Virus record (IMG/VR): IMGVR_UViG_3300022936_000020
Location: 1 to 38,229 of that record
Length of the DNA stretch: 38,229 bases
Strand: one strand, 5' to 3'
Origin: a virus
Lineage: Duplodnaviria > Caudoviricetes
The position numbers were made by a program, and so were the translations under genes. Positions 25,145 through 30,217 of this stretch are shown in pieces; within the stretch, counting starts at the first letter, position 1; each line of letters begins with the position of its first letter. The notes below the pieces were generated by a model that worked only from the letters and a program-made list of their open reading frames with translations, was not told the DNA's origin and ran no database searches.

Positions 25145-26968
25145 ATGGCTAGCGGTCGTCTTTTTATCCCCGGCTGGATGCCCGCTCGCGATAGCAATGG
25201 CGATCCTATTCCTAATGTGGTTGTGTCGTTTTATCAGAACGAGACTGACGTTCTTGCGTCTGTTTATGCTGATGAGGCCCTGACTGTCCCTCTGACGAAC
25301 CCTGTTGCAGCCAATTCATCGGGTCGATTCCCTCAGATATACGCCAGCGACGCCATGACCTACAGTGCATCTGTTGATGCGCCTTATGGTCCCGCTGGAC
25401 AGCCCTTCACGTTTGATGGCCTCCAAGCATCTCAGGCTGCGGACATCGCAGCCGCAAATCTGGCACAAGGCGCTGCGGAAGATGCTGAGGCTGCTTTGGC
25501 AGCGACTGAGGCGGCTATTGATGCCGCAACTCAGGTTGGAGGCGGCGCGGCGGCCCTTGCTGGCGCGCTTGCGGGGGCCACCGCTGGCACAGCCGCCGCT
25601 AACGTGGTTGTGGCGACAAAGCTGGATAAGGGTCAAAATCTAGCCGATCTAAATTCCATTGCCACAGCACGGGCCAACATCGGCTTGGGCGTCTATAAGC
25701 GTCCAGAAGACTTTGACCCGACAGCGGGAAGCGGAGGCGATGATACAGCCGCGATCCAAGCCGCAATCGACGCAGCAAAAGGCTCGGGCGCAAGCGGACG
25801 CGCTTCTGCATCTGTGCTTCTGTCAGCTAAAGATTACCGGGTAACAGGACTGACGATCAATCGTCCTTTGGATATGTTTGGAGTAGGATCAAAGGCTAGT
25901 CGAATCATTCTTGTTGAATCCGCTACAGCCCCTGCCGTAAAAATCAACTGCGCTTTTGACACCACTAATTACTGGATAAGCGGAGGAACGCCAGCAGAGG
26001 TAAGGCTTGGCGGGTTCACCATTGTTGGCCCTAACCGCGATGCCGCTGCTGGTCAGAACGTTGCTCATGGTGTTTCTCTTGAGAACGCGGCTGTAAACCC
26101 GATTTACACGCGCGTCGTTCTAGATGACCTATTCATTAACGGTGTTCCTGGTGACGGTTTGAGCGCGACCGGATGGCAAGGGCTGCTTGAGTGGAGGTCT
26201 GCTTATATCGCCTATGTCGGACGATACTCGGTTTACGCAAACTCGGTCACAGACTGGCGCTTTATCAGCGGCGATATTTTCGGAGCCAAGAAAGACAACT
26301 TCTTGTTTTCGGGCGCTGTTGCAATGCAGCTTGTCGGCGTTAACTGTTATGTCGCACTCGAAAATAACATGAACATCTTTGGCGCAAGCTCGGTGGTGGC
26401 GCAGGGTTGCTATTTTGATCTTGCGGCGCAGCACAATATTCGCGCCAATATGGACCATCCATCTGCTGACCTTCGGATGTCAGATTGCACGGTTCGCTGG
26501 GCTAGTCAGCAGACTGACAATGTTTATTCCGACTTGTACATTGATCCTTCCCCTCGCGGGGGTCGCGTTCAGTTGAGCAATGTCAAGTTTGAAAACCCTC
26601 TTGTGAATGGATTTAGCGCTAAAGGGCCGAAATATAATATCGAGTTTGCGACGACAGCGATAGCGCTGACCCGGATACCCGGCGTGATTTTCATTGCAGA
26701 TGACGACACTGATCCGACTCGGGGTCCGCTGGCTCGTGCGCGGATCTCCAACGATATGCGCCGGGTTCGTATGTTCCGAGGGGAAATTCCGGCGGCGACT
26801 ACGGCGCAGCTTCGAAGTGCATCGGACCTGGTCAACACCACAAACAAACGACCTGGCGCACAGGTTTTTGAAATCGACAACAACCGATACTTGTCCGCGA
26901 TCAACGGCACTGTGACGGGTGGATGGTATCTAAATGGAACCTTGGCGATCAACGTTGACCTTCCGTAG
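25145..26968 (+). CDS. Tailspike / receptor-binding protein (head-binding domain plus beta-helix)
   Basis: N-terminal LTNPVAANSSGRFPQIY anchor; DDTAAIQAAIDAA pectate-lyase-3-type start of beta-helix. Confidence 0.85.
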   Translation: MASGRLFIPGWMPARDSNGDPIPNVVVSFYQNETDVLASVYADEALTVPLTNPVAANSSGRFPQIYASDAMTYSASVDAPYGPAGQPFTFDGLQASQAADIAAANLAQGAAEDAEAALAATEAAIDAATQVGGGAAALAGALAGATAGTAAANVVVATKLDKGQNLADLNSIATARANIGLGVYKRPEDFDPTAGSGGDDTAAIQAAIDAAKGSGASGRASASVLLSAKDYRVTGLTINRPLDMFGVGSKASRIILVESATAPAVKINCAFDTTNYWISGGTPAEVRLGGFTIVGPNRDAAAGQNVAHGVSLENAAVNPIYTRVVLDDLFINGVPGDGLSATGWQGLLEWRSAYIAYVGRYSVYANSVTDWRFISGDIFGAKKDNFLFSGAVAMQLVGVNCYVALENNMNIFGASSVVAQGCYFDLAAQHNIRANMDHPSADLRMSDCTVRWASQQTDNVYSDLYIDPSPRGGRVQLSNVKFENPLVNGFSAKGPKYNIEFATTAIALTRIPGVIFIADDDTDPTRGPLARARISNDMRRVRMFRGEIPAATTAQLRSASDLVNTTNKRPGAQVFEIDNNRYLSAINGTVTGGWYLNGTLAINVDLP

Positions 26969-27025
26969 CGTCGCGCCTGTCTATATAGAGGTGTAGGGCA
27001 ATCCTGCCCCTAATGGATGACTGAC

Positions 27026-27157
27026 ATGGCCGATGACAGCGGACCCATCAACCCCGACAACCCGCCTCAGCCTCCTCCGAAACGCTGTCCTGGATGCGGC
27101 AAGATTGGCTGTTCCGAACACGGCGAAGACAATGGTGGGATTGGAGGCAACTCATGA
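27026..27157 (+). CDS. 43-aa Pro-rich peptide with CxxC-x3-C-x2-H, absent from ORF track
   Basis: MADDSGPINPDNPPQPPPKRCPGCGKIGCSEHGEDNGGIGGNS; ATGA overlap with next ORF (alternative start 27017). Confidence 0.6.
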   Translation: MADDSGPINPDNPPQPPPKRCPGCGKIGCSEHGEDNGGIGGNS

Positions 27158-27240
27158 CCAAGCCACGCAAGACAAGCGGCCCGACGAATCCGACGAGACC
27201 GCCTAAACCACCGACTAAACCCGGAACCAAGAAACGATAA
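27154..27240 (+). CDS. 28-aa basic Pro-rich peptide, absent from ORF track
   Basis: MTKPRKTSGPTNPTRPPKPPTKPGTKKR; GGAGG RBS; TAATG overlap with the membrane protein gene. Confidence 0.65.
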   Translation: MTKPRKTSGPTNPTRPPKPPTKPGTKKR

Positions 27241-27782
27241 TGATCGTGGCTGTCTCCATCGCTGGACTTTGTTTGCTGGCTCTCGGGCTTGCCGACACGC
27301 GAGCGCGCTACATGGCGCTGATACTTGCGCTCGTCTGGCTGGAGACAGCCCTTTTCGACCTGATGGCGTCTGTCGATATGGCTATCGCGATGAGGCCATT
27401 GATCGACTTTTGCGGAGCTATCATGGCTCTTGGCGTCGTCACGCGAGAGCGTTGGAGCAAACTCGTTCCGGCGCTCTTTGCCGTCATGATGCTGTGTCAC
27501 TCAGCCTATTGGCTTGCATGGCATAACGGTGTTGATTTGTGGTATGCCTATCCACACGCGCTGAATGCGTTGTGGTTGTGTCAACTTGCCGCCGTAGCGT
27601 GGCCTGGTGGGGGTCAGTTGGTTGGAGTCGTTGGCGCTTGGCTTAGCCGTGTTTTCAATGGGTGGCGCAGTAATGCTGTCTTGGTTCCTTGGGAACAAAA
27701 AGCCCGCGCAATCGGCTCATATAGACAAGATGATGTCGGGGCCTGTAGCGACGTATATCTACCCTTCGATAAGCGAGCTTGA
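27240..27782 (+). CDS. Polytopic (about 5 TM) membrane protein
   Basis: Several hydrophobic segments with embedded D/H/N/Q; coupled to the upstream peptide. Confidence 0.75.
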   Translation: MIVAVSIAGLCLLALGLADTRARYMALILALVWLETALFDLMASVDMAIAMRPLIDFCGAIMALGVVTRERWSKLVPALFAVMMLCHSAYWLAWHNGVDLWYAYPHALNALWLCQLAAVAWPGGGQLVGVVGAWLSRVFNGWRSNAVLVPWEQKARAIGSYRQDDVGACSDVYLPFDKRA

Positions 27783-27786
27783 ACCG

Positions 27787-28104
27787 ATGCAGCACGACGA
27801 GACAGGAAACCCCGACGTGGACATGCGGATCGCACTTGCTAGGCAAGAAGAAAAGGTTGAGGGCCTACGTCAGACCGTTGAGCGCGAGTTTGCGCGCGTC
27901 GGCAAGGGCCTGACCGATCTCGCACAGGCGATGAACCAGTCTGTCAACGACATGAAGGGGCAATATGTCTCTCGTGCTGAACACGCAATCCTAGAGAGCC
28001 GGTTTGCGCGTGTTGAGAAAATCGTCCTGACGGCGTGCGGCATTATCCTTGTCGCAGTATTCGGTGCTGTCATCGCCCTTGTGGTGGTGAAGGGGGGCGC
28101 ATGA
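27787..28104 (+). CDS. Coiled-coil protein with C-terminal TM helix (holin-like/lysis accessory)
   Basis: RIALARQEEKVEGL..YVSRAEH..TM helix; start uncertain (in-frame ATGs near 27730 also possible). Confidence 0.65.
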   Translation: MQHDETGNPDVDMRIALARQEEKVEGLRQTVEREFARVGKGLTDLAQAMNQSVNDMKGQYVSRAEHAILESRFARVEKIVLTACGIILVAVFGAVIALVVVKGGA

Positions 28105-28526
28105 AAATCCGTATTCCAAACGCTGCTGAATGGATGCTAGGCGCGTCCCTTATCGGAATATTGGTGATCGGCGGTTTCATGGTCGTTCGGGCTTTTGAGC
28201 CTCTGCCTGTGCGCTTTGAAAGCCTGAATATCGTGAATTCTCCTAAGCCTGGAGAGACGCTAACAGTAGAAGCGACCGTAACGCGCGTTGAGAAAAAAGA
28301 CTGCACGAACGGAGTCCAGATTGATTCTCGGGATTCAAACGGGGTCGAATCTCGCTTGCCTGTTCCGACGCGTCAGGTTTCAGGCCCGTTCACGCGATAC
28401 ACTATCGCCATCCCCACCGAGATACAGCCCGGTCCTTATGATCTTCGGGTCCGGGAAACAATCTATTGCGGCGGCAATCCACGGATCAGCGAAACGCCGT
28501 GGCTGGCTTTTGAGGTGATGCGGTGA
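28101..28526 (+). CDS. Membrane-anchored periplasmic beta-sandwich protein (antiholin-like position)
   Basis: One N-terminal TM helix, two Cys, PGPYDLRV; ATGA overlap. Confidence 0.65.
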   Translation: MKIRIPNAAEWMLGASLIGILVIGGFMVVRAFEPLPVRFESLNIVNSPKPGETLTVEATVTRVEKKDCTNGVQIDSRDSNGVESRLPVPTRQVSGPFTRYTIAIPTEIQPGPYDLRVRETIYCGGNPRISETPWLAFEVMR

Positions 28527-28780
28527 CTCGATCTGAACGGCTGGCATGGTTCATTGGCGAAACCGCTAGGCCTCTCGCCATTATGGCCTCGTCCTTTTCG
28601 GCATCGATAGCCGCTGTGATCGTTGCGACTAAGGTTGAGAATGGAAACGATGGAGCGATTTTGATTGCAGCTATCTTCGGCGGTGCTGGCGTCTTCTACG
28701 GGTTCAAGGCAGTCGAGACGTGGAAGGCCAAACAAGCAGATAGCGATGTTGAAGTCGCCAAGGTGGAGGCGAAGAAGTGA
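28523..28780 (+). CDS. Putative holin (two TM helices)
   Basis: Two hydrophobic helices and charged tail, directly before the endolysin. Confidence 0.65.
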   Translation: MTRSERLAWFIGETARPLAIMASSFSASIAAVIVATKVENGNDGAILIAAIFGGAGVFYGFKAVETWKAKQADSDVEVAKVEAKK

Positions 28781-29463
28781 CCCAGGCATCGGATAACGAA
28801 GCCTTCGTCCGCGCGGCACAGGCCGCTAAAGGCCTCAAGGTGGACGGATGGGCGGGCGACAAGACGTGGACGGCGTGGGGGCTGTCTGCGGAGGCTACAG
28901 GCTCCGTCACAGACCTGACCGAACGCGGCGTTCTTGAGTTGATCTCGCACGAGGCCATCGTTCAGGAAGCCTACAAGGACTCGGTTGGCGTCTGGACATG
29001 GGCTATTGGCGTCACTAACGCATCGGGTCATGAGGTCTATCCGCGCTACAAGGACAATCCTCAGAGCCTGGCACGCTGCATTGAGGTGTCTGTCTGGCTG
29101 ATGCGGACGAAATATCTGCCAGACGTGTTGAAGGCGTTTGAGGGCCACGCGCTGACCGAAGCGCAACTGACCGCCGCCCTTTCGTTCCATTACAACACAG
29201 GCGCTATCCGCCGTGCGGATTGGGTGGATTCGTGGAAGAATGGCCGTGCGGATAAAGCGCGGCTTGAAATCATGAATTGGAAGTCCCCGCCTGAGATCGT
29301 TAAGCGACGTGCGGCTGAACGGGATCTGTTCTTTGACGGCAGGTGGTCAAATGATGGAATGGCGACGGTCTATCCCGTCAGTAAGCCTTCGTATTCGCCA
29401 GCTTGGAGCAAGGCGAAGAAGGTTGACGTGACGGCGGCGGTTAAGGTGGCGCTCAATGCGTGA
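28777..29463 (+). CDS. Endolysin (GH24 phage lysozyme with short N-terminal peptidoglycan-binding element)
   Basis: GLKVDGWAGDKT; HEAIVQEAYKDSVGVWTWAIG (E-x8-D-x5-T); SFHYNTG; RRAAERDLF. Confidence 0.92.
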   Translation: MTQASDNEAFVRAAQAAKGLKVDGWAGDKTWTAWGLSAEATGSVTDLTERGVLELISHEAIVQEAYKDSVGVWTWAIGVTNASGHEVYPRYKDNPQSLARCIEVSVWLMRTKYLPDVLKAFEGHALTEAQLTAALSFHYNTGAIRRADWVDSWKNGRADKARLEIMNWKSPPEIVKRRAAERDLFFDGRWSNDGMATVYPVSKPSYSPAWSKAKKVDVTAAVKVALNA

Positions 29464-29740
29464 GGTTAAGTCCTGGCTCTACCTCGCCGCCGTGATCGCA
29501 CTCCTGATCTTGGCTACGTTCGTCGTCAGCCGCTGCACTCAGTCACGAGATCAATCCGCACGAACAGAGAAAGCCACATCCAAGGCGCTCGATAACGTCG
29601 CCACACAGACACCGGCCATTCGCCAAGAGCAAGAGGACAAACAGCGTGAAGTTGACAACATCGAAGGCTCTGACCAGCGCTTGCCTGATGGGTATGGCCG
29701 CGATTTGCAGCAGTTGCGCGACAAGCGTAATCCCCGATAG
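29456..29740 (+). CDS. Inner-membrane spanin (Rz-like)
   Basis: N-terminal TM helix plus helical periplasmic part, after the endolysin. Confidence 0.75.
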   Translation: MREVKSWLYLAAVIALLILATFVVSRCTQSRDQSARTEKATSKALDNVATQTPAIRQEQEDKQREVDNIEGSDQRLPDGYGRDLQQLRDKRNPR

Positions 29741-29912
29741 CCTCAAGACGCCGTGCGTGTCCACTGTGGACGTGTCTGGCGCTCAGACTATCGGGGATCT
29801 TGGTAAGGCGATCATTGCTGGGGACGGCGATTTAAGGGTGTGCTCCGTTCGTAAGGATGCCGTAGTCGCGATTGCAGAGGCTAACTCGCGGCCTTGGTTC
29901 TGGCCCTTCTAA
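29646..29912 (+). CDS. Outer-membrane spanin lipoprotein (Rz1-like)
   Basis: Overlaps Rz in another frame; signal peptide with ICSSC lipobox-like site; start uncertain. Confidence 0.75.
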   Translation: MKLTTSKALTSACLMGMAAICSSCATSVIPDSLKTPCVSTVDVSGAQTIGDLGKAIIAGDGDLRVCSVRKDAVVAIAEANSRPWFWPF

Positions 29913-30217
29913 CACTCATCGCTCAACCCGCGTGTGGCATTGCGTGGGGTGTGCGGTTCCTCCCCCTTCCCATTGCGGACGAGGAAGGCGTCTGTGAGGT
30001 CTTCCAGCGCTTCGGTCGGGAGGTCGGATCGCCAGCGTTGCAGCAGTCCCCTCGCCTCCTTCAGTTCAGCGATCAGGGCTTTGATGTCCTGTGCGGCCCT
30101 GATCTTTCCGCCCGCGCCATACGTGCGAGCCATTGCACCTGATGTCGAATACGCGCCGCTGTCGAAAGCATCCGCCAGCTTCTCCAGCGCGTCTAGGTCC
30201 TGCGGGGTCATTTCCAT
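29909..30217 (-). CDS. Hypothetical protein
   Basis: Last gene of the leftward operon; converges on the spanin stop. Confidence 0.7.
   Translation of the reverse strand: MEMTPQDLDALEKLADAFDSGAYSTSGAMARTYGAGGKIRAAQDIKALIAELKEARGLLQRWRSDLPTEALEDLTDAFLVRNGKGEEPHTPRNATRGLSDEC

What the first reader, a model, noticed from the sequence alone, without database searches (positions are those of the whole stretch)
26969..27782. Two paralogous Pro-rich micro-peptides coupled to a polytopic membrane protein at the head of the lysis operon
Seen: 27026-27157 (SGPINPDNPPQPPPK, then CPGC-x3-C-x2-H) and 27154-27240 (SGPTNPTRPPKPPTK) share the motif SGPxNPxxPPxPPxK. One peptide is acidic and the other strongly basic. 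Both are chained by ATGA/TAATG overlaps to a ~5-TM protein with intramembrane polar residues (LID, MMLCH, ALNALWLCQL), and all three sit upstream of a complete holin/endolysin/spanin set, so they are extra. Inference: an undescribed peptide plus membrane receptor/processing module that times lysis (peptide signalling or lysis inhibition), or polyproline ribosome-stalling leaders that make lysis depend on EF-P or translation state.
Basis: partly seen in the sequence, partly recalled or inferred. Interest (0 to 1): 0.75.

Follow-up and report, generated by a model that had tools for sequence, protein, structure and literature searches.

The report
Phage peptide–sensor module mirroring Caulobacter HmrBC
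Just ahead of its lysis genes this phage carries two tiny conserved proline-rich peptide genes and a five-helix membrane protein that is a distant relative of the Caulobacter lifestyle regulator HmrC; the same peptide-plus-membrane layout recurs in many phages and bacteria, and it is likely a peptide signal with its sensor that may set when infected cells burst, which is untested.

Summary
Both peptide ORFs are real genes: codon changes against relatives are mostly synonymous, and a Gly/Pro-tailed small ORF abuts the membrane gene (M) in 21 of 26 phage-type loci versus 10 of 749 control gene starts. M has no Pfam or PHROG name. It belongs to a wide 5-TM family with conserved intramembrane Asp/His, which includes phiCbK gp289, enterobacterial and Vibrio phage proteins, and, remotely, C. 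crescentus HmrC. In Caulobacteraceae and Sphingomonadaceae chromosomes M follows an HmrB-like helical protein ending in G-x-x-D/N-K-P, next to a hybrid kinase (HmrA) or a membrane-tethered LuxR protein. The phage peptides look like that tail without its leader, but direct sequence homology to HmrB is weak. Best reading: a leaderless peptide ligand plus membrane sensor, likely acting on the holin-like gene that usually follows. The lysis link is positional only: the downstream genes are unrelated, and phiCbK's pair lies far from its lysis genes. Polyproline stalling is unlikely to be the core function. Binding was not tested (co-folding unavailable). The scan noted a similar layout before on other DNA (e1-5698687); the HmrBC link was not found in my searches.

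The parts
26995..27009 (+). Stem-loop (GGGC-AATCCT-GCCC) just before the P1 ribosome-binding site; a generic phage gene-start hairpin, not specific to this module
   Evidence: Single exact copy in the window. Present before the first peptide in L001, L005, L007, L139, L140 with stem changes. A pattern scan gave 123 viral loci; stem-extending pair complementary in 121 of 130 matches; M found in only 2 of the 123.
27026..27157 (+). P1: acidic 43-aa peptide, G-P-x-N-P core plus Pro-rich stretch, then a CxxC-x4-C-x2-H tail found in some relatives only
   Evidence: Counterparts in L007, L388, L136, L140 (Cys tail) and L001, L005, L137, L327 (no Cys tail). 9 synonymous: 3 non-synonymous codons vs L007.
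27154..27240 (+). P2: basic 28-aa peptide with the same core; ATGA overlap with P1, TAATG overlap with M
   Evidence: Counterparts in L001, L005, L007, L388, L136, L137, L327, L134, L135, L139, L101. 13:2 and 3:0 synonymous:non-synonymous.
27240..27782 (+). M: five-helix membrane protein (core about residues 1-125, variable basic tail), remote HmrC relative; conserved W33, D56, W72, H87, W91, Y104, N109, Q115, PGG
   Evidence: AF2 helices 2-18, 23-42, 45-69, 75-95, 103-120, block pLDDT 79-95 over residues 1-120. 116 family representatives; conservation. Profile-profile match to hmrC-syntenic proteins, prob 93.7%, E 1.9e-7.
27787..28104 (+). Holin-like protein (coiled coil plus one C-terminal TM helix); candidate output partner, inferred
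   Evidence: phrog_689 holin, E 0.01 only. Starts 4 nt after the M stop.
28777..29463 (+). Endolysin (phage lysozyme with PG-binding motif); context
   Evidence: PF00959 E 1e-10; phrog_7 E 1e-17
29456..29912 (+). Inner and outer spanin pair; context
   Evidence: phrog_1026 E 1.7e-4, phrog_456 E 7.7e-6, LysC E 1.5e-5

Best explanation
The two peptides and the membrane protein form a conserved phage gene module related to the bacterial HmrB-HmrC pair, in which the peptides are likely ligands, the five-helix protein is likely their membrane sensor, and the sensor would tune the holin-like protein encoded next to it, and so lysis timing. SHOWN: the ORFs are conserved and under protein-level selection; M is a 5-TM family protein with conserved Asp/His; its chromosomal relatives sit behind an HmrB-type protein and beside a membrane-bound regulator (hybrid kinase or LuxR-HTH with a C-terminal TM helix). 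INFERRED: (1) the functional unit of the partner is the short G-[G/P]-x-[D/N]-[K/P]..P core, because it is the one element common to 110-aa host proteins, 65-105-aa phage forms and 24-45-aa phage forms; (2) M is N-out/C-in, with D56, H87, Y104 and N109 in the outer half of the membrane, which suggests a pocket open to the periplasm; (3) lytic phages can drop the leader and the host-type C-terminal motif because lysis itself would release the peptides; (4) M would act by helix-helix contact on a neighbouring membrane protein, as HmrC was modelled to do on HmrA; in the phage the nearest candidate is the holin-like protein. The result would be a lysis-inhibition-like switch reporting nearby lysis. 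Two peptide genes (one acidic, one basic, in either order) would raise dose or broaden specificity.
For: Pairing: 21 of 26 phage-type M loci vs 10 of 749 control starts; 4 of the 5 misses show Gly/Pro-tailed peptides by eye. All 8 near-complete relatives with 78-85% identical capsid protein carry M, each behind a short or long partner. Long and short partners alternate within that clade (L133, L138 long; L134-L137, L139, L140 short), with bridging cores such as GPIDKPP (L136) and GGTDPGPKP (L229). HmrC link: the phage-derived profile A4 finds hmr-syntenic proteins (per-genome E 1.5e-7 to 7.6e-5). A4 vs 30 such proteins scores 48, against at most 15.5 for 30 column shuffles and 21.5 reversed, with D/W/H/Y/N in register. 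L253 shows serA-serC-M-P divergent from a HAMP/HisKA/HATPase/REC kinase. L290's partner has 108 aa, H50 and H74, as published for HmrB. The model of a host M returns all 13 top viral-library hits of the window M model, phiCbK gp289 first (TMq 0.76; all E > 0.001). Published: hmrA, hmrB and hmrC deletions give the same phenotype; HmrC modelled beside the HmrA TM helices (PMC11481889, sections 11, 12, 16). Modular outputs: 29 of 30 Sphingomonadaceae loci have a long partner and 29 of 30 a LuxR-like HTH gene upstream. Lysis link: a small TM ORF follows M in 18 of 29 phage-type loci. In Edwardsiella phage PEi21 and Klebsiella phage JD001 the peptide-M-holin-like unit stays together while endolysin and spanins are transcribed divergently. 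PEi21's peptide holds three DAGGRGKTR repeats. Topology: family mean K+R is 2.1, 2.5 and 6.2 in loops 1, 3 and the C-tail against 0.5 and 0.6 in loops 2 and 4.
Against: Genes after M are of at least three unrelated types (coiled coil with C-terminal TM, multi-TM, N-terminal TM), which argues against a specific M-holin interface. In phiCbK, CcrBL9, CcrSC and C2 no holin-like gene follows, and phiCbK's lysis cassette is genes 104-107, not 288-289 (PMC3556154). Only 5 of 80 viral and 0 of 80 bacterial-genome loci with a related endolysin carry M within the fetched flanks, so it is dispensable for lysis. The tail-fibre/lysis junction is a known insertion spot for accessory genes (recalled). Peptide-to-HmrB homology is weak: a host-partner profile gave at most 11.3 bits on 51 phage-side ORFs, with the window peptides not above 4 bits (reversed at most 1.7). 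The narrow comparison of close M relatives with hmrC-syntenic proteins is not significant (E 0.083). HmrB needs His74 (invariant in 30 of 30), which the short peptides lack. How a 3-4.5 kDa peptide would cross the outer membrane is unexplained.
Confidence: 0.42

Rival explanations
1. Host hijack: M plus a leaderless, constitutive HmrB-tail mimic plugs into the host's HmrA kinase or LuxR-TM regulator and shifts c-di-GMP, flagellum and holdfast output (more motile cells, or loss of the phage receptor). The position before the lysis genes only gives late expression.
For: Hosts carry the system: HmrB-like genes in 60 of 61 genomes of the hmr-syntenic genus, 1-5 copies each; M-like genes in 52 of 101 Sphingomonadaceae genomes. 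The pair is far from lysis genes in phiCbK-like phages. Host partners mostly end in a hydrophobic LRxV..AA-type motif (43 of 58) that phage forms lack.
Against: The same module occurs in phages of Klebsiella, Edwardsiella and Vibrio (77 records; three contexts read). The host cassette was found in only 2 of 251 genomes sampled across the class of G054. Gammaproteobacterial chromosomes were not searched.
Confidence: 0.25
2. M is an AgrB-like processing or export enzyme (intramembrane Asp/His) that cuts at the Gly motif and releases a mature peptide read by another receptor.
For: D56 (94%) and H87 (84%) are conserved and kept in host proteins. Partners have leader + Gly + variable core anatomy. 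PEi21's triple repeat resembles a multi-copy precursor. HmrA has a periplasmic domain (PMC11481889).
Against: No fold match to a peptidase stood out (best Z 9.4, generic helical bundles; inconclusive). Short phage peptides have almost no leader. Phage loci hold no separate receptor gene. LuxR-TM partners have almost no periplasmic part.
Confidence: 0.13
3. The peptide ORFs are cis-acting polyproline leaders whose EF-P-dependent stalling gates translation of M and the lysis genes.
For: Start-stop overlaps in most phage loci; runs of 5-9 Pro in L025, L135, L137, L327.
Against: No Pro-Pro in L056, L078, L223, L225, L226, L227, L229, nor in the PEi21 and JD001 peptides. Host pairs are separated by about 30-90 nt rather than overlapped. 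hmrB complements a deletion and needs His74.
Confidence: 0.11
4. Toxin-immunity or exclusion: the basic Pro-rich peptide acts like a proline-rich antimicrobial released at lysis, and M protects or excludes.
For: P2 has 9 K+R and 8 Pro in 28 aa; the likeness to insect proline-rich antimicrobial peptides is recalled, not tested.
Against: Many partners are acidic or neutral. The hmrC deletion is viable and phenocopies hmrB.
Confidence: 0.06

Closest known systems
HmrB-HmrC(-HmrA) of Caulobacter crescentus (Zappa et al. 2024, PMC11481889; abstract, sections 11, 12, 16 and passages read)
   Same: 5-TM protein of the same remote family directly behind a small partner gene; Asp/His kept; partner tail G..D/E-K-P resembles the peptide core.
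   Different: Phage-borne; partner cut to 28-43 aa, duplicated and without the His74 helix; overlapped reading frames; followed by a holin-like gene, not a kinase. The paper reads HmrB as an atypical phosphotransfer protein, a role the short peptides could not fill.
phiCbK gp288-gp289 (phrog_13785), CcrBL9 gp274c-273c, RLK gp079c-078c
   Same: M family members (A4 E 7.5e-11, 1.2e-19, 1.6e-36) behind a partner ending [ST/V]GG-x-DKP with prolines.
   Different: Single partner of about 80 aa with a His-bearing helix; all annotated hypothetical; phiCbK and BL9 copies are not at a lysis cassette.
T4 lysis inhibition (RI/RIII antiholins) and arbitrium (AimP/AimR) (recalled)
   Same: Works like: a phage-made cue from other infections would change a lysis decision.
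   Different: No sequence or family match found. Arbitrium uses a Sec-exported pro-peptide, re-import and a cytoplasmic TPR receptor in Bacillota; RI is a periplasmic antiholin.
agr-type AgrD/AgrB/AgrC (recalled)
   Same: Precursor, membrane protein and kinase anatomy in the host hmr locus; Pro-containing acidic tail.
   Different: No AgrB Pfam hit in 120 members; no conserved Cys in M or ring Cys in the peptides; Gram-negative hosts.

Membership tests
HmrC-like 5-TM family | Five consecutive TM helices with short loops | tested here: met
   AF2 models of window M and of an hmr-syntenic M both give five helices; charge bias fits N-out/C-in
HmrC-like 5-TM family | Sequence homology to hmrC-syntenic proteins | tested here: met
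   Broad profile: prob 93.7%, E 1.9e-7, above shuffles and reversal. Narrow profile not significant (E 0.083), so remote only.
HmrC-like 5-TM family | Adjacent to a membrane-bound kinase or LuxR-TM regulator | tested here: not met
   Window neighbours are tail fibre, holin-like and lysis genes
HmrB | About 108-aa helical hairpin with His74 | tested here: not met
   P1 and P2 are 43 and 28 aa with no such helix; host profile not above 4 bits on them
HmrB | Gene directly upstream of an HmrC-like gene, with a G-x(1-4)-D/N/E-K/P/C tail | tested here: met
   40 of 58 host tails; window cores GPINP and GPTNP; motif chosen after viewing
agr (AgrB/AgrD) | AgrB family membrane peptidase | tested here: not met
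   No AgrB hit among 120 members at E 0.01; no conserved Cys
Arbitrium / RRNPP | Sec-type signal on the pro-peptide and a TPR receptor gene | tested here: not met
   Peptides have no hydrophobic stretch; no TPR protein among the ten neighbours scanned
Antiholin / lysis-inhibition system | Binds the holin and delays lysis | not testable with these tools
   Needs experiments; co-folding was unavailable
Known solved membrane folds | Structural match standing above generic helical bundles | tested here: inconclusive
   Foldseek best E 0.17; VIA best Z 9.4, rmsd 3.1, 108 aligned
EF-P-dependent polyproline leader | Conserved Pro-Pro stall motif in all members | tested here: not met
   Absent in at least 9 partners

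The most novel reading that the evidence does not exclude
HmrB-HmrC is an unrecognised peptide-signalling system of Gram-negative bacteria (HmrB a signal precursor, not a phosphotransfer protein), and phages of alpha- and gammaproteobacteria have captured a leaderless version that uses lysis itself to broadcast the peptide, giving a widespread arbitrium-like communication channel that times lysis or steers neighbouring hosts.
Probability: 0.25. Interest if true: 0.92.

Novelty: new variant of a known kind. Interest (0 to 1): 0.7.

Why it matters
Peptide communication between phages is known from Bacillota, and lysis inhibition has a mechanism mainly for T4 (both recalled). This module is common in phages, usually unannotated (the JD001 peptide is not called), and present in cultured phages of a model host (phiCbK, RLK on C. 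crescentus), so it can be tested at once. It also offers a different reading of a published pathway: only H74, not H50, is conserved in HmrB relatives (30 vs 3 of 30), the pair couples to different outputs, and phage versions keep only the tail. That makes the signal sensed by the Hmr pathway directly testable with synthetic peptides.

Tried and rejected
Family scans: no Pfam, PHROG or NCBIfam name for M or the peptides; across 120 members only phrog_13785 (4 members) and scattered weak hits. Solved-structure searches gave generic bundles only. The Atlas search gave three unnamed, mostly viral clusters at 0.90-0.91 (lead only). Pattern-based locus search with close relatives found nothing in bacterial genomes; two divergent alignments were unusable for it. 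A word-indexed search with distant members added nothing. The upstream hairpin first looked module-specific; rejected, as it precedes many phage genes and its folding z-scores are unremarkable (the L007 stretch given there missed the hairpin). No sigma-70 promoter or useful terminator was called in 26800-30100. Peptide-M co-folding was not available (queue full; nothing folded), so no verdict on binding. Expression: no RNA holder listed. Literature: seven searches found no description of the phage module; the phiCbK genome paper does not mention gp288 or gp289 (passages); the BLAST XVIII review only restates the Hmr model (one passage). Supplements of PMC11481889 were not opened and may bear on HmrB/HmrC models. 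The library lacks most subscription papers. Dropped rows: P0100 (repeat protein), P0076 and P0125 (fragments), and 19 near-identical close homologues were left out of alignment A4. Whole records were searched for 50 of the 107 capsid- and endolysin-related viral loci; the others only within their fetched flanks.

Full report
Setting. The window is a 38,229-nt virus record, 96% complete, with P22-like portal, head and ejection genes. Its closest endolysin relatives in named genomes lie in Brevundimonas, so a Caulobacteraceae host is inferred. After the tail-fibre gene (25145-26968) come P1 (27026-27157), P2 (27154-27240), M (27240-27782), a holin-like gene (27787-28104; phrog_689, E 0.01), two unnamed genes, a lysozyme and two spanins.

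The observation. Coordinates, shared motif, charges and overlaps are as reported; the Cys spacing is x4, not x3. The peptides behave as protein-coding genes: synonymous:non-synonymous codon differences are 13:2 and 3:0 for P2 and 9:3 for P1. The three closest relatives with upstream DNA (L001, L005, L007) have both peptides. All 8 near-complete records whose capsid protein is 78-85% identical carry M; in all, 8 of 50 records searched and 8 of 17 near-complete ones do. Each of the 8 has a small partner ORF abutting M. An acidic plus a basic peptide occur in either order (window, L007, L388 versus L136, L137, L327). Others have one short peptide, or one partner of about 70-80 aa ending in [ST]GG-x-x-KPP (L133, L138). 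A motif test gave 21 of 26 phage-type M loci against 10 of 749 control starts (post hoc motif, related loci).

The membrane protein. M has 27 close homologues and 116 representatives at 50% identity. Conserved positions among distant members are D56 94%, Y104 92%, H87 84%, W91 84%, W72 83%, W33 78%, Q115 78%, N109 77%. AF2 gives five confident helices over residues 2-120, and loop charges indicate N-out/C-in, which places D56, H87, Y104 and N109 in the outer half of the membrane (inference from helix order; the model's coordinates were not inspected). No named family or solved fold matches. The 120-row profile A4 finds RLK gp078, CcrBL9 gp273c and phiCbK gp289 (E 1.6e-36, 1.2e-19, 7.5e-11), each behind a partner of about 80 aa ending in GG-x-DKP with prolines. 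It also picks ORF-50 of Edwardsiella phage PEi21 as best of 172 frames (E 1e-6). There a 41-aa peptide with three DAGGRGKTR repeats precedes it and a holin-like gene follows. That protein has relatives in 77 phage records. The two further contexts read, JD001 and Vibrio 367.14, show an uncalled Gly-Gly peptide, M (weak scores, E 0.008 and 0.003) and a holin-like ORF.

The host counterpart. A4 matched 47 of 201 genomes of the family of a Brevundimonas genome. Of 30 loci read, 23 had a partner upstream, 2 were tandem M arrays, 1 had a LuxR gene directly upstream, and 4 showed none. Fourteen partners were helical proteins of about 110 aa with a conserved His and a G..DKP tail. Several loci lie between serC and a divergent HAMP-HisKA-HATPase-REC kinase. 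This is the layout of C. crescentus hmrC-hmrB / hmrA (PMC11481889; abstract, sections 11, 12, 16 and passages read). One partner has the published length and histidines of HmrB (108 aa, H50, H74). In that genus 60 of 61 genomes have HmrB-like genes, with M downstream in 30 of 30 loci; H74 is kept in 30 of 30 and H50 in 3 of 30. A4 against these 30 M proteins gives probability 93.7%, E 1.9e-7, well above shuffled and reversed controls; the narrow comparison is not significant. A model of the host protein (pLDDT 93; its alignment included phage-type rows) retrieves all 13 top viral-library hits of the window model, phiCbK gp289 first (all E > 0.001). In Sphingomonadaceae 52 of 101 genomes match; of 30 loci, 29 have a long partner and 29 a LuxR-like HTH gene upstream; the examples read in Caulobacteraceae end in a hydrophobic segment. 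A class-wide sample gave 2 of 251. The paper reports identical phenotypes for hmrA, hmrB and hmrC deletions, complementation of hmrB, loss of function for H50A and H74A, and an AF2 model of HmrC beside the HmrA membrane helices; it reads HmrB as an atypical phosphotransfer protein.

How it likely works. The partner-M pair recurs with different membrane-bound neighbours: a kinase, a tethered LuxR protein, or holin-like proteins. The one element common to all partners is a short Gly-led core followed by D/N and K/P. I therefore read M as a sensor and the peptides as leaderless ligands. This step is inferred. A host-partner profile scores phage partners weakly (best 11.3 bits; window peptides not above 4), and binding could not be modelled. 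The output is less certain. For lysis: a small TM gene follows M in 18 of 29 phage-type loci, and in PEi21 and JD001 it stays with the pair while the endolysin is transcribed away from it. Against: those genes are of unrelated types; phiCbK-like phages keep the pair far from lysis genes 104-107; and only 5 of 80 viral and 0 of 80 bacterial loci with related endolysins carry M nearby. I give 0.42 to ligand-sensor control of lysis, 0.25 to hijack of host Hmr or LuxR signalling, 0.13 to M as a processing enzyme, 0.11 to polyproline stalling (at least 9 partners lack Pro-Pro) and 0.06 to toxin-immunity.

Novelty. The host pair is genetically described; the phage module and its link to HmrBC were not found in seven literature searches or in five look-ups of earlier scan notes. 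Verdict: real, a new variant of a known kind, interest 0.7, directly testable in C. crescentus with phiCbK or RLK.

Noticed in passing
window 26984-27009; L001, L005, L007, L139, L140; L317-L439: A GGC-AATCCY-GCC stem-loop precedes a ribosome-binding site in about 200 viral stretches, some contigs with several copies. The stem extends by a complementary pair in 121 of 130 matches, and the loop (UCC) could pair with the downstream GGA of the Shine-Dalgarno. In four module loci a -10-like hexamer lies 5 nt before it (by eye; the promoter scan called none).
   Followed up: partly
L001:3678-3797; also L135, L137 upstream of the peptides: A conserved ORF of about 38 aa (ILACY-x-SGQM-x-E-x-x-W pattern) often sits between the tail fibre and the peptide genes; absent in the window.
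   Followed up: no
window 28101-28526 and 28523-28780: Two extra genes inside the lysis cassette: a TM-anchored beta-rich protein (141 aa; also in L001 and L025) and an 85-aa two-helix membrane protein (also in L001) that could be the true holin; no family hits.
   Followed up: no
window 27607-28104 and L001, L006, L025: The variable tail of M overlaps an open frame continuous with the holin-like gene, with an upstream ATG 53 nt before the M stop; a dual-start holin/antiholin arrangement is possible.
   Followed up: no
L234, L233, L247: The LuxR-HTH-TM genes beside host pairs contain a conserved nested ORF in another frame (100-170 aa, similar across loci), suggesting an overprinted gene or frameshift product.
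   Followed up: no
L242, L252: Tandem arrays of M paralogues in some Caulobacteraceae genomes, recalling the multi-membrane-protein cassette in note e1-3143636.
   Followed up: no
L287-L316: HmrB His50, reported as required in C. crescentus, is His in only 3 of 30 relatives (otherwise Asp or Asn), whereas His74 is invariant; relevant to the phosphotransfer model.
   Followed up: partly
L226, L227, L229, L230: Phage-type partner-M pairs in bacterial contigs; the two contexts read (L226, L229) look chromosomal, suggesting exchange between phage and host.
   Followed up: partly
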